The notes under the pieces were generated by a model. The model searched no databases and was not told where the DNA came from. It was given only the letters and a program-made list of their open reading frames with translations. A DNA stretch of 64,000 nucleotides, taken from Escherichia coli (lineage in GTDB: Bacteria > Pseudomonadota > Gammaproteobacteria > Enterobacterales > Enterobacteriaceae). Shown here in pieces: positions 4,927 to 7,722 of this stretch. Where the stretch lies: NCBI RefSeq assembly GCF_003334765.1, contig NZ_QOWT01000016.1. The stretch is one strand, 5' to 3'. Numbering within the stretch: the first letter of the stretch is position 1; each line of letters starts with the position of its first letter. The position numbers and the translations under genes are program-made.

Positions 4927-6645
4927 ATGCGTACTAGCCAATACCTGCTCTCCACTCTCAAGGAGACACCTGCCGACGCCGAGGTGATCAGCCATCAGCT
5001 GATGCTGCGCGCCGGGATGATCCGCAAGCTGGCCTCCGGGTTATATACCTGGCTGCCGACCGGCGTGCGCGTTCTGAAAAAAGTCGAAAACATCGTGCGT
5101 GAAGAGATGAACAACGCCGGTGCGATCGAGGTGTCGATGCCGGTGGTTCAGCCAGCCGATTTGTGGCAAGAGAGTGGTCGTTGGGAACAGTACGGTCCGG
5201 AACTGCTGCGTTTTGTTGACCGTGGCGAGCGTCCGTTCGTACTCGGCCCAACTCATGAAGAAGTTATCACTGACCTGATTCGTAACGAGCTTAGCTCTTA
5301 CAAACAGCTGCCGCTGAACTTCTATCAGATCCAGACCAAGTTCCGCGACGAAGTGCGTCCGCGTTTCGGCGTCATGCGTTCCCGCGAATTCCTGATGAAA
5401 GATGCTTACTCTTTCCATACTTCTCAGGAATCCCTGCAGGAAACCTACGATGCAATGTATGCGGCCTACAGCAAAATCTTCAGCCGCATGGGGCTGGATT
5501 TCCGCGCCGTACAAGCCGACACCGGTTCTATCGGCGGCAGCGCCTCTCACGAATTCCAGGTGCTGGCGCAGAGCGGTGAAGACGATGTGGTCTTCTCCGA
5601 CACCTCTGACTATGCAGCGAACATTGAACTGGCAGAAGCTATCGCGCCGAAAGAACCGCGCGCTGCTGCTACCCAGGAAATGACGCTGGTTGATACGCCG
5701 AACGCGAAAACCATCGCGGAACTGGTTGAACAGTTCAATCTGCCGATTGAGAAAACGGTTAAGACTCTGCTGGTTAAAGCGGTTGAAGGCAGCAGCTTCC
5801 CGCTGGTTGCGCTGCTGGTGCGCGGTGATCACGAGCTGAACGAAGTTAAAGCAGAAAAACTGCCGCAGGTTGCAAGCCCGCTGACTTTCGCGACCGAAGA
5901 AGAAATTCGTGCCGTGGTTAAAGCCGGTCCGGGTTCACTGGGTCCGGTAAACATGCCGATTCCGGTGGTGATTGACCGTACCGTTGCGGCGATGAGTGAT
6001 TTCGCTGCTGGTGCTAACATCGATGGTAAACACTACTTCGGCATCAACTGGGATCGCGATGTCGCTACCCCGGAAGTTGCAGATATCCGTAACGTGGTGG
6101 CTGGCGATCCAAGCCCGGATGGCCAGGGTACGCTGCTGATCAAACGTGGTATCGAAGTTGGTCACATCTTCCAGCTGGGTACCAAGTACTCCGAAGCACT
6201 GAAAGCCTCCGTACAGGGTGAAGATGGCCGTAACCAAATCCTGACGATGGGTTGCTACGGTATCGGGGTAACGCGTGTGGTAGCTGCGGCGATTGAGCAG
6301 AACTACGACGAACGAGGCATCGTATGGCCTGACGCTATCGCGCCGTTCCAGGTGGCGATTCTGCCGATGAACATGCACAAATCCTTCCGCGTACAAGAGC
6401 TTGCTGAGAAACTGTACAGCGAACTGCGTGCACAAGGTATCGAAGTGCTGCTGGATGACCGCAAAGAGCGTCCGGGCGTGATGTTTGCTGATATGGAACT
6501 GATCGGTATTCCGCACACTATTGTGCTGGGCGACCGTAACCTCGACAACGACGATATCGAATATAAATATCGTCGCAACGGCGAGAAACAGTTAATTAAG
6601 ACTGGTGACATCGTCGAATATCTGGTGAAACAGATTAAAGGCTGA
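4927..6645 (+). CDS. proS: prolyl-tRNA synthetase
   Basis: Recognised ProS N-terminus [20 protein letters not shown] at the ATG at 4927 (572 aa); the ORF-track upstream extension begins at a TTG and was not used. Confidence 0.95.
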
Positions 6646-6651
6646 TGCCAG

Positions 6652-6682
6652 AAAGGGTCCTGAATTTCAGGGCCCTTTTTTT
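6652..6682 (+). terminator. Rho-independent terminator downstream of proS
   Basis: GC-rich hairpin aaagggtcctgaaTTTCAgggccc followed by TTTTTTT immediately after the proS stop. Confidence 0.8.
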
Positions 6683-6698
6683 ACATGGATTGTATAAA

Positions 6699-7523
6699 AT
6701 GGATAAACCAAAGGCGTACTGCCGCCTGTTTCTCCCCAGCTTTCTTTTACTTTCGGCTTGTACCGTTGATATCAGCCAGCCAGACCCATCAGCCACAGCA
6801 GTAGATGCCGAGGCAAAAACATGGGCTGTCAAATTCCAGCATCAAAGCTCTTTCACCGAACAATCAATAAAAGAAATAACGGCACCTGATCTCAAACCCG
6901 GCGATTTGCTGTTCTCCTCAAGCCTTGGGGTAACCTCATTTGGAATCCGCGTCTTCAGCACTTCCTCTGTGAGTCACGTTGCAATCTTTCTGGGTGATAA
7001 TAACGTTGCAGAAGCGACAGGCGCTGGCGTCCAGATCGTTTCCCTTAAAAAAGCGATGAAGCATAGTGATAAGCTTTTCGTCTTACGAGTCCCGGATCTT
7101 ACCCCGCAACAAGCCACAGATATCACCGCGTTTGCCAATAAAATCAAAGATAGCGGTTATAACTATCGCGGCATTGTCGAATTTATTCCCTTTATGGTGA
7201 CTCGCCAGATGTGCTCACTGAATCCGTTCTCCGAGGATTTTCGCCAACAGTGCGTCAGCGGCCTGGCGAAAGCGCAGTTAAGCAGTGTGGGCGAAGGAGA
7301 CAAAAAGTCGTGGTTTTGTTCGGAATTTGTCACGGATGCCTTTGCCAAAGCCGGGCATCCACTTACACTGGCGCAATCGGGCTGGATTAGCCCTGCCGAT
7401 CTGATGCATATGCGTATTGGTGATGTCTCTGCGTTTAAGCCAGAAACGCAGTTACAGTATGTTGGGCACCTGAAGCCTGGGATTTATATCAAGGCGGGTC
7501 GCTTTGTTGGTTTGACCCGGTGA
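6699..7523 (+). CDS. yaeF: putative lipoprotein, permuted NlpC/P60 (papain-like) family, YaeF
   Basis: 274-aa ORF from the ATG after the proS terminator (MDKPKAYCRLFLPSFLLLSACT signal/lipobox); contains a Cys in WFCSEFV typical of NlpC/P60-type catalytic sites. Confidence 0.85.
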   Translation: MDKPKAYCRLFLPSFLLLSACTVDISQPDPSATAVDAEAKTWAVKFQHQSSFTEQSIKEITAPDLKPGDLLFSSSLGVTSFGIRVFSTSSVSHVAIFLGDNNVAEATGAGVQIVSLKKAMKHSDKLFVLRVPDLTPQQATDITAFANKIKDSGYNYRGIVEFIPFMVTRQMCSLNPFSEDFRQQCVSGLAKAQLSSVGEGDKKSWFCSEFVTDAFAKAGHPLTLAQSGWISPADLMHMRIGDVSAFKPETQLQYVGHLKPGIYIKAGRFVGLTR

Positions 7524-7529
7524 TAAAGT

Positions 7530-7650
7530 AAATGCCTTATCCGCCTTAAGGTATGAGGGGGGTTGTAGGCATGATAAGACGCGCCAGCGTCGCATCAGGC
7601 GTTGAGCACCATTGCCGGATGCGGCGTAAACGCCTTATCCGGCCTACAAA
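7530..7650. repeat. REP/BIME cluster (repetitive extragenic palindromes)
   Basis: Units such as gcctgatgcgacgctggcgcgtcttatcatgcctac and tgccggatgcggcgtaaacgccttatccggcctacaaa match the REP consensus. Confidence 0.85.
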
Positions 7651-7722
7651 AAACGTGCAAATTCAAAATGTTGAAATATATCCTTCTGGCCTGTTTTGCG
7701 TTTGTTTCTGTCTCAAGACGGG

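What the first reader, a model, noticed from the sequence alone, without database searches (positions are those of the whole stretch)
6645..7700. yaeF: stand-alone permuted NlpC/P60-like lipoprotein bracketed by a terminator and a REP cluster
yaeF sits as its own transcription unit between the strong proS terminator and a REP/BIME block. The protein has a lipoprotein signal and a Cys in a WFCSEFV context typical of permuted papain-fold peptidoglycan/lipid hydrolases. Its substrate and role are poorly defined, so it is one of the least understood genes in the window.
Basis: partly seen in the sequence, partly recalled or inferred. Interest (0 to 1): 0.4.

Follow-up and report, generated by a model that had tools for sequence, protein, structure and literature searches.

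The report
yaeF: known permuted NlpC/P60 lipoprotein gene

Summary
The window is E. coli chromosome. The feature is yaeF, true CDS 6699-7523 (274 aa); the ATG at 6645 is only a mechanical ORF start. It is annotated in RefSeq and present in 5415 of 5426 complete genomes.

All described elements are real:
- A strong proS terminator hairpin at 6650-6680 with a 7-T run.
- A lipoprotein signal with lipobox LSAC (Cys21).
- A permuted His93/Glu105/Tyr154/Cys207 active site. The WFCSEFV Cys is kept in 121 of 122 divergent homologues.
- A two-REP BIME at 7565-7647.

Three points go beyond the annotation:
- The start codon lies 18 nt after the terminator, with no promoter-like site. yaeF is therefore more likely fed by read-through from proS than a stand-alone unit. 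This layout is conserved in Klebsiella.
- The clade carries a roughly 50-aa helical insert with a co-varying Cys172/Cys185 pair in the loop that forms the S1 pocket.
- In multidomain relatives the domain is fused to muramidase, amidase and M15 modules. That points to the cell wall, whereas lipid is the expected substrate for permuted enzymes.

Substrate is unresolved. Novelty: already known.

The parts
4927..6645 (+). proS (proline--tRNA ligase), the upstream gene; stop codon TGA at 6643-6645
   Evidence: RefSeq annotation of the 100%-identical record; ORF list.
6650..6682 (+). proS intrinsic terminator: 14-bp stem (6650-6663 / 6667-6680), 3-nt loop, 7-T run at 6676-6682
   Evidence: RNA fold -26.8 kcal/mol, z -5.0; -21.9 kcal/mol, z -3.8 on the shorter piece. 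A hairpin of different sequence sits at the same position in Klebsiella (L004) and Chania (L002).
6687..6689 (+). Weak Shine-Dalgarno (GGA), 9 nt before the yaeF ATG; conserved as AGGA in Klebsiella and Chania
   Evidence: Read from the sequence.
6699..7523 (+). yaeF CDS, 274 aa plus stop; YaeF-family permuted NlpC/P60 (Peptidase_C92) lipoprotein
6699..6761 (+). Lipoprotein signal peptide (residues 1-21). Lipobox LSAC is at nt 6750-6761. Cys21 is the predicted lipidated N-terminus, and Thr22 at +2 predicts outer-membrane sorting.
   Evidence: Translation; Cys21 invariant in 19 orthologues; lipobox in 64 of 82 stand-alone homologues. Lipidation itself was not tested.
6975..6977 (+). His93 codon (SVSHV), the catalytic base
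   Evidence: Aligns with His49 of BcPPNE 3kw0 (Xu 2011); H in 129 of 131 homologues.
7011..7013 (+). Glu105 codon (VAEAT), the third triad residue
   Evidence: Aligns with Glu64 of BcPPNE; 126 E plus 5 D of 131.
7158..7160 (+). Tyr154 codon (GYNY), the NlpC/P60 signature tyrosine (oxyanion / P1 carbonyl)
   Evidence: Aligns with the KPYDF tyrosine of YiiX (Xu 2011); 105 Y plus 21 F of 129.
7164..7316 (+). Clade-specific insert (residues 156-206) between Tyr154 and Cys207. It forms two helices (156-173 and 179-193) and carries Cys172 (7212-7214) and Cys185 (7251-7253).
   Evidence: AF2 secondary structure. The Tyr-to-Cys distance has a median of 49 residues in the clade, against 13 in YiiX and 27 in BcPPNE (residue numbers). 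The Cys pair co-occurs: 105 both, 4 neither, 2 single.
7317..7319 (+). Cys207 codon (WFCSEFV), the catalytic nucleophile
   Evidence: Aligns with Cys154 of BcPPNE and the catalytic Cys (Cys128) of YiiX; C in 121 of 122 homologues.
7528..7548 (+). Partial REP-like unit
   Evidence: 86% direct repeat of 7626-7646.
7565..7600 (-). REP unit (Z-type), the left arm of the BIME
   Evidence: 1 mismatch to the degenerate REP pattern; 0 expected by chance.
7614..7647 (+). REP unit (Y-type), the right arm of the BIME. Together with 7565-7600 it is a full-length Rfam naRNA4 match (7568-7644).
   Evidence: Exact match to the REP pattern; RF02564 at 92.8 bits on the - strand and 47.3 on the + strand; RNA fold of 7521-7660 gives -57.5 kcal/mol, z -3.95.
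7723..8433 (-). nlpE, the convergent downstream neighbour (outer-membrane lipoprotein, Cpx activator)
   Evidence: RefSeq annotation.

Best explanation
yaeF (6699-7523) encodes a catalytically competent cysteine hydrolase of the circularly permuted NlpC/P60 (papain-like) type.

Export and location (inferred from sequence):
- It is exported with a lipoprotein signal and lipidated on Cys21.
- With Thr at +2, it is sorted to the periplasmic face of the outer membrane.

Chemistry (inferred from the solved relatives):
- Cys207 is activated by His93, which Glu105 orients.
- Cys207 attacks the carbonyl of an amide or ester bond in an envelope component, forming a thioester acyl-enzyme.
- Tyr154 stabilises the P1 carbonyl, and water resolves the intermediate.

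Specificity (inferred): it should be set by a clade-specific insert of about 50 residues (two helices with the co-varying Cys172/Cys185 pair, probably a periplasmic disulfide). The insert sits in the loop that forms the S1 pocket in solved relatives.

Substrate (not shown): my preferred sub-claim, at about 0.45, is a murein-peptide amide bond (endopeptidase or amidase). The reason is that this exact domain, insert included, is fused to muramidase, MurNAc-L-Ala amidase and M15 peptidase modules in relatives. The main rival, at about 0.35, is an acyl-lipid or lipoprotein bond.

Expression (inferred): most likely through read-through of the strong proS terminator that ends 18 nt before the ATG. 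The 3' end is capped by a REP pair shared with convergent nlpE.

The confidence figure refers to enzyme class, active site and localisation, not to the substrate.
For: Identity:
- 100% identical to RefSeq yaeF.
- NF008552 equivalog at 534 bits against a cut-off of 279.
- PF05708 at E 2.9e-8.

Fold:
- AF2 pLDDT 88.8, pTM 0.86.
- Foldseek top hits 3kw0 (5e-7) and 2if6 (1.8e-5).

Active site:
- Residue-level alignment to His49/Glu64/Cys154 of BcPPNE.
- Conservation in about 130 representatives at 50% identity or less: H93 129/131, E105 126 E plus 5 D, C207 121/122.

Insert and Cys pair.

Lipoprotein.

Cell-wall association:
- Pfam census of 59 multidomain relatives: Amidase_2 7, Amidase_3 6, Phage_lysozyme 3, M15-type about 5, PG_binding_1 1.
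- Phage copies lie in tail or baseplate modules.

Expression:
- Terminator folds.
- No promoter-like site upstream.
- The layout is conserved in Klebsiella, with compensatory changes in the stem.

Core gene: 5415 of 5426 genomes. Synteny proS-yaeF-nlpE is kept in Klebsiella and Chania.
Against: - No biochemical or genetic data exist for YaeF itself.
- Every permuted NlpC/P60 enzyme characterised so far acts on acyl-lipid substrates: LRAT and PLAAT, and Tox-Act1/TseH as phospholipases. LnsA is required for lipoprotein N-acylation, though its own role is not yet defined. YiiX crystallised with a fatty acid. This argues against the murein sub-claim.
- 21 of the 59 fusion partners are Peptidase_C70 and 7 are trypsin-like. 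The fused proteins may therefore be mixed toxin cocktails rather than murein hydrolases.
- Read-through expression rests on the absence of a consensus sigma-70 site. Other sigma factors or a weak promoter are not excluded.
Confidence: 0.85

Rival explanations
1. Same enzyme and location, but the substrate is an acyl-lipid bond. YaeF would be a phospholipase or lysophospholipase, an acyltransferase, or an amidase that removes the N-acyl chain of lipoproteins or lipopeptides at the inner leaflet of the outer membrane. Xu et al. proposed this kind of function for YiiX and BcPPNE.
For: - The closest solved structures are YiiX (fatty acid in a hydrophobic S1 tunnel) and BcPPNE.
- All characterised permuted members handle acyl chains.
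- YaeF is itself membrane-anchored.
- The gene is flanked by genes for envelope lipoproteins (metQ, rcsF, nlpE) in a conserved arrangement.
Against: - The S1-forming alphaD-alphaF loop of YaeF is replaced by a clade-specific insert of about 50 residues that YiiX lacks. Pocket properties therefore do not transfer.
- The same insert-bearing domain is fused to murein-specific modules in about 20 of 59 relatives.
Confidence: 0.35
2. yaeF is an independent transcription unit with its own promoter. The proS terminator would simply insulate it.
For: - A strong terminator lies directly upstream.
- RefSeq lists yaeF as a separate gene.
- A -35-like TTTACA (6680-6685) and a -10-like TATAAA (6693-6698) exist in the gap, read.
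Against: - The two hexamers are only 7 nt apart, so they are not a promoter pair.
- A start from TATAAA would fall after the ATG at 6699.
- The scan found no promoter-like site upstream of yaeF.
- Only 18 nt separate the stem end from the ATG, and this layout is conserved in Klebsiella.
- In other Proteobacteria, yaeF-like genes likewise sit 29-59 nt behind housekeeping genes.
Confidence: 0.15
3. YaeF is a catalytically dead binding or scaffold lipoprotein, in the manner of RipD-type inactive NlpC/P60 proteins.
For: - No activity has ever been reported.
- A weak NCBIfam hit to the inactive RipD model, E 0.12.
Against: His93, Glu105, Tyr154 and Cys207 are all present and almost invariant across about 130 divergent homologues, including those fused to active-type lytic modules.
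Confidence: 0.04

Closest known systems
YaeF family (NCBIfam NF008552; Pfam PF05708 Peptidase_C92; the 'YaeF/poxvirus G6R' family of Anantharaman and Aravind 2003)
   Same: This gene is the founding member. It gives a full-length equivalog match and has the same permuted His...Cys order, lipoprotein signal and genomic position as in all E. coli.
   Different: Nothing differs; it is identical. The family has no assigned substrate.
E. coli YiiX (PDB 2if6) and Bacillus cereus BcPPNE (PDB 3kw0), the solved permuted NlpC/P60 enzymes
   Same: - Same Cys/His/Glu triad plus signature Tyr, in the same permuted order.
   Different: - Only 18-26% identity.
- YaeF has a 21-residue lipoprotein signal and a tether of about 35 residues.
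- YaeF has an insert of about 50 residues with a Cys pair between Tyr154 and Cys207. The corresponding gap is 13 residues in YiiX and 27 in BcPPNE.
- YaeF has a conserved C-terminal YVGHLK strand region.
- BcPPNE is likely cytoplasmic (Xu 2011); YaeF is periplasmic.
Lipid-acting permuted NlpC/P60 enzymes: LRAT and PLAAT/HRASLS, V. cholerae TseH, Salmonella Tox-Act1, MARTX RID, S. aureus LnsA
   Same: - Permuted core and Cys-His chemistry through an acyl-thioester.
   Different: - Much more distant.
- They are toxins or eukaryotic enzymes, not housekeeping lipoproteins.
- They have no YaeF-type insert.
- Their lipid specificity has not been shown to apply to YaeF.
Canonical NlpC/P60 murein endopeptidase lipoproteins of E. 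coli (MepS/Spr, NlpC, MepH)
   Same: - Outer-membrane lipoproteins (MepS/Spr and NlpC; from my own knowledge, not checked here).
- Papain-like Cys/His active site.
- Weak sequence hits over the His-bearing half: Pfam NLPC_P60 at 4e-4, and MepS at 0.004-0.008 with the family profile.
   Different: - Non-permuted order (Cys before His).
- Murein activity is demonstrated for them and not for YaeF.
BIME / REP elements (Rfam naRNA4, the REP325 unit)
   Same: Two inverted REPs with a short linker, lying between convergent genes; a full-length match to RF02564.
   Different: A single pair rather than the six-unit REP325 array. A 2026 preprint reports that REP325 acts locally as a 3'UTR terminator and stabiliser rather than as a nucleoid organiser.

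Membership tests
YaeF family (NCBIfam NF008552, equivalog) | Whole-protein HMM score above the curated cut-off of 279 bits | tested here: met
   534.1 bits, E 5.3e-161, profile positions 1-274 of 274.
Pfam Peptidase_C92 (PF05708) | Significant match to the family HMM | tested here: met
   E 2.9e-8 over residues 65-156. The second piece (residues 200-218, carrying the Cys) is weak because the clade-specific insert splits the match.
[quoted passage not shown] | Catalytic His and polar residue precede the catalytic Cys in the sequence | tested here: met
   The order is His93, Glu105, Tyr154, Cys207. They align residue by residue to His49/Glu64/Cys154 of 3kw0.
[quoted passage not shown] | Conservation of the Cys/His dyad across homologues | tested here: met
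   H 129/131 and C 121/122 in representatives at 50% identity or less.
[quoted passage not shown] | Three-dimensional fold matching solved PPNEs | tested here: met
   [not shown]
[quoted passage not shown] | Hydrophobic S1 pocket (Xu et al. 2011) | not testable with these tools
   Model coordinates are not returned. The S1-forming alphaD-alphaF loop is replaced by a conserved insert of about 50 residues, so the property cannot be transferred.
Bacterial lipoprotein (Lgt/LspA/Lnt substrate) | Lipobox [LVI][ASTVI][GAS]C after a positively charged n-region and a hydrophobic h-region | tested here: met
   The signal is MDKPKAYCR-LFLPSFLLL-SAC. Cys21 is invariant in 19 orthologues.
Bacterial lipoprotein (Lgt/LspA/Lnt substrate) | Actual lipid modification and outer-membrane localisation | not testable with these tools
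   This needs globomycin or palmitate labelling and fractionation. Thr at +2 only predicts Lol-dependent sorting to the outer membrane.
Murein hydrolase | Cleavage of a defined peptidoglycan bond | not testable with these tools
   Only association is available: fusion to Amidase_2, Amidase_3, Phage_lysozyme and M15 modules in relatives.
Rho-independent terminator (proS) | G+C-rich hairpin followed directly by a U-tract | tested here: met
   14-bp stem and 7 T; z -5.0. It was missed by the pattern scan because the T-run partly pairs. A compensated hairpin is present in Klebsiella.
REP / BIME | Imperfect palindromes of about 35 nt matching the REP consensus, in inverted pairs, repeated genome-wide | tested here: met
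   Exact and 1-mismatch matches, with 0 expected. RF02564 scores 92.8 bits. The 1.4-kb query containing the block matches a median of 35 places per genome.
Independent transcription unit | A promoter between the upstream terminator and the start codon | tested here: not met
   There is no sigma-70-like site upstream of yaeF in the scan, and the gap is only 18 nt. Other sigma factors were not tested.

The most novel reading that the evidence does not exclude
The YaeF clade is the first permuted NlpC/P60 lineage that works on the cell wall rather than on lipids. On this reading YaeF would be an additional outer-membrane-anchored murein endopeptidase or amidase of E. coli. It would be kept at low level by terminator read-through from proS. 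Its S1 pocket would have been rebuilt by a disulfide-stapled helical insert. The same module would be reused as a lytic warhead in Bacteroidota multidomain proteins and in phage tail modules.
Probability: 0.35. Interest if true: 0.5.

Novelty: already known. Interest (0 to 1): 0.2.

Why it matters
yaeF is one of the remaining E. coli core genes that has a clear enzyme fold but no known substrate. It sits in a conserved neighbourhood of envelope-sensor lipoprotein genes (rcsF, nlpE). Assigning its substrate would either add a murein hydrolase to a heavily studied set, or reveal an outer-membrane lipid- or lipoprotein-editing activity. The finding as written adds nothing to the databases. The fusion census and the clade-specific insert only sharpen which experiment to do first.

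Tried and rejected
1. The ATG at 6645, which overlaps the proS stop, as the true start. Rejected because it runs through the terminator, is not conserved in Klebsiella, and would bury the signal peptide.

2. Horizontal acquisition. yaeF is 49.3% G+C against 52.5% for the window, and synteny is conserved as far as Yersiniaceae. Not supported.

3. A conserved operon partner. Six contexts of stand-alone homologues share no neighbour.

4. A profile search with the fused-type domain (A3) to obtain an architecture census. It returned almost only single-domain proteins. The census came instead from scanning 59 long proteins individually.

5. The conserved gene cluster next to the Bacteroidota fused proteins. 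No PHROG or NCBIfam hit for 8 ORFs; left as a side observation.

6. Mapping the NsrR ChIP sites reported near yaeF/c0233 in strain CFT073. Only 3-mismatch matches were found here, so this was dropped.

7. The two 'terminator-like' sites inside the yaeF 3' end (7462-7506). The count is not above the shuffled expectation.

8. The rimP-leader Rfam hit at 6621-6733. At 23.5 bits against a gathering score of 47, it is chance; it is the terminator hairpin.

9. Pseudogenisation. A rare variant with a 33-aa deletion plus a frameshift exists (P0085), but the sampled O157-sized genome has an intact gene.
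Full report
**What is there**

The window is E. coli chromosome. Bases 6400-7800 are 100% identical to complete genomes, and at least 80% of that stretch is present in 5415 of 5426 complete E. coli genomes. RefSeq annotates, in window coordinates, proS at 4927-6645 (+), yaeF at 6699-7523 (+, 274 aa, 'YaeF family permuted papain-like enzyme') and nlpE at 7723-8433 (-).

That ATG overlaps the proS stop (TGATG), runs through the terminator and is not conserved. Met1 at 6699 and the following signal peptide are conserved in 19 orthologues with 50-82% identity.

**Flanks**

Upstream:
- Directly after the proS stop lies a 14-bp hairpin (6650-6663 / 6667-6680) followed by a 7-T run.
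- It folds at -26.8 kcal/mol, z -5.0.
- The pattern scanner missed it because part of the T-run pairs with the preceding A-run.
- Klebsiella has a hairpin of different sequence in the same place (z -6.6), and Chania a weaker one (z -2.8). The structure is therefore conserved rather than the sequence.

Downstream:
- An exact REP lies at 7614-7647 (+), a 1-mismatch REP at 7565-7600 (-) and a partial unit at 7528-7548. Zero matches are expected by chance.
- The pair is a full-length match to Rfam naRNA4: 92.8 bits on the - strand, against a gathering score of 59.5.
- The region folds at -57.5 kcal/mol, z -3.95.
- A 2026 preprint reports that such REPs act as local 3'UTR terminators and stabilisers, and that REPs between convergent genes go with higher expression of both genes. 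That fits this yaeF/nlpE convergent pair.

**The protein**

Family membership:
- NCBIfam NF008552 (YaeF equivalog) scores 534 bits against a cut-off of 279.
- Pfam Peptidase_C92 gives E 2.9e-8 and NLPC_P60 gives 4e-4.
- A single-sequence PDB search gives only E 0.11 to 3kw0. A profile of 48 family members gives 3.2e-13 to 3kw0 (BcPPNE) and 4.2e-11 to 2if6 (YiiX).

Active site:
- These alignments place YaeF His93, Glu105 and Cys207 on His49, Glu64 and Cys154 of BcPPNE. They place Tyr154 on the signature tyrosine. Residue roles are from Xu et al. 2011, PMC3142127.
- A phmmer scan of 1.84 billion representatives found 697 relatives.
- Among the roughly 130 that cover the sites, His93 is kept in 129/131, Glu105 in 126 (plus 5 Asp), Cys207 in 121/122 and Tyr154 in 105 (plus 21 Phe).

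Fold:
- An AF2 model built on the 48-sequence alignment has pLDDT 88.8 and pTM 0.86.

Lipoprotein signal:
- The N-terminus is MDKPKAYCR-LFLPSFLLL-SAC, a classical lipoprotein signal.
- Cys21 is invariant in orthologues.
- 64 of 82 stand-alone homologues of 240-300 aa have a lipobox by a simple regex.
- Thr at +2 predicts outer-membrane sorting. This rests on the established Lol rule and was not tested.

**Features beyond the annotation**

1. Insert and Cys pair.
- Between Tyr154 and Cys207 the clade carries a median of 49 residues (range 35-57). The gap is 13 residues in YiiX and 27 in BcPPNE (from the Tyr and Cys residue numbers in Xu 2011).
- The model shows two helices there, 156-173 and 179-193.
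- The insert holds Cys172 and Cys185. They co-occur in 105 homologues, are both absent in 4, and occur singly in 2. This is the pattern expected of a disulfide, which is plausible in the periplasm.
- According to Xu et al., this alphaD-alphaF loop is one wall of the S1 pocket. The hydrophobic, fatty-acid-binding pocket seen in YiiX therefore cannot simply be assumed for YaeF.

2. Fusions.
- The insert-bearing domain recurs inside 59 long proteins of 363-1538 aa.
- Scanning each against Pfam gave these partners: Peptidase_C70 21, Amidase_2 7, Amidase_3 6, Trypsin 4, Trypsin_2 3, Phage_lysozyme 3, M15-type or Extensin-like_C about 5, PG_binding_1 1, and S8 1.
- About a third of these proteins therefore pair the domain with murein-specific hydrolases.
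- Named examples come from Bacteroidota (Saprospiraceae).

3. Phage copies.
- YaeF matches phrog_1128 at 2.8e-22.
- Homologues in Ralstonia phage RsoM1USA and in Bacillus Bastille-like phages lie in tail or baseplate modules.
- BFVD matches include phage and giant-virus or poxvirus G6R/OPG091 homologues.

4. No fixed partner.
- No conserved operon partner exists for the stand-alone genes.
- Within Enterobacterales the order metQ-rcsF-tsaA-proS-yaeF-nlpE-arfB-yaeQ is conserved.

**Expression**

- The ATG is 18 nt after the terminator stem, preceded only by a weak GGA/AGGA Shine-Dalgarno. That motif is conserved in Klebsiella and Chania.
- No sigma-70-like promoter was found upstream.
- The only -10-like hexamer (6693-6698) would start transcription after the ATG.
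- I therefore infer that yaeF is fed by read-through of the proS terminator, or by a promoter inside proS whose transcripts must also pass it. This would keep its level low.
- This is an inference from sequence. No transcript data were available.

**Mechanism and substrate**

- Shown: the sequence, the fold prediction, conservation of the catalytic residues, the lipobox, the terminator and the REPs.
- Inferred: lipidation and outer-membrane anchoring; thioester catalysis by Cys207/His93/Glu105 with Tyr154; the disulfide; and read-through expression.
- Not resolved: the substrate.
- The superfamily prior favours acyl-lipid bonds. LRAT and PLAAT, Tox-Act1 and TseH, and LnsA point that way, as does the fatty acid bound in YiiX.
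- The clade-specific evidence favours the cell wall: fusion to amidase, lysozyme and M15 modules, phage tail context, and a rebuilt S1 wall.
- I put murein at about 0.45, lipid or lipoprotein at about 0.35, and other or none at about 0.2.

**Literature and novelty**

- 13 papers mention yaeF. The hits I checked mention it only as a family name, a locus marker or a transposon hit.
- The B. subtilis C92 protein YycO is listed as a candidate wall hydrolase with activity 'ND'.
- The gene, its family, the permutation and the lipoprotein signal are all already described. The finding is correct but ordinary.
- The residual interest is that the substrate is unknown and that the fusion evidence points somewhere unexpected for a permuted NlpC/P60 enzyme.

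Noticed in passing
window 7568-7644 (- strand): The REP pair between yaeF and nlpE is a full-length Rfam naRNA4 (RF02564) match. It scores 92.8 bits on the strand of the nlpE 3'UTR and only 47.3 on the yaeF strand. It is the only such hit in the 64-kb window.
   Followed up: partly
window 50114-50198: A second BIME with the same Y/Z REP pair arrangement: 50114-50147 (+) and 50163-50198 (-).
   Followed up: no
L005 1-10127; L012 197-11692; contig of P0177 (no DNA held): Three Bacteroidota/Saprospiraceae metagenome contigs share a co-directional cluster. It consists of a Peptidase_S8 gene, 7-8 ORFs with no Pfam, PHROG or NCBIfam hit, and a terminal multidomain protein. The lytic domains of that protein vary: C70 + YaeF-like; lysozyme + C70 + YaeF-like; YaeF-like + Amidase_2. 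It looks like an undescribed delivery system with polymorphic cargo.
   Followed up: partly
window 7668-7793 (+): A 41-codon ORF, MLKYILLACFAFVSVS..., has a lipobox-like ILLAC and lies antisense to the nlpE 3' end. It may correspond to c0233 of strain CFT073, where an NsrR ChIP peak was reported (PMC5320621). The published NsrR motifs do not map here (3 mismatches at best). It is probably spurious.
   Followed up: partly
window 6645-6698: An in-frame ATG overlaps the proS stop codon (TGATG) and extends the yaeF frame by 18 codons through the terminator. It is not conserved in Klebsiella, and an open frame of that length is expected by chance about 40% of the time.
   Followed up: yes
L006 3998-5816; L008 3795-5840; L003 4187-5771: In other Proteobacteria, stand-alone yaeF-like lipoprotein genes also sit 29-59 nt behind the preceding gene: cmoB and tgt (tRNA modification) and, in L003, a periplasmic solute-binding-protein gene. 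This echoes the proS-yaeF arrangement and suggests that piggy-back expression is common.
   Followed up: no
phrog_1128; L009 4986-5450; L010 5001-5486: The PHROG family that YaeF matches is labelled 'enoyl-CoA hydratase/carnithine racemase-like', and RefSeq phage records inherit that name. The matched part is a C92 permuted papain domain, and the genes lie in tail or baseplate modules. The label looks like a mis-annotation.
   Followed up: partly
P0085 (E. coli, seen on 20 contigs): A minority yaeF allele has an in-frame 33-residue deletion (residues 108-140) followed by a frameshift after residue 183. It removes Cys185 and Cys207, so it is a likely pseudogene in some strains.
   Followed up: partly
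window about 3700-8433 and L001: Four envelope lipoprotein genes (metQ, rcsF, yaeF, nlpE) cluster within 6 kb around tsaA-proS, and the order is conserved as far as Yersiniaceae. Two of them, rcsF and nlpE, are sensors of envelope or lipoprotein-trafficking stress.
   Followed up: no
window 32908-33017, 33856-33942, 42813-42858 (all - strand): Other Rfam hits above gathering score elsewhere in the window: CssrA, t44 and the HtrA 5'UTR thermometer.
   Followed up: no
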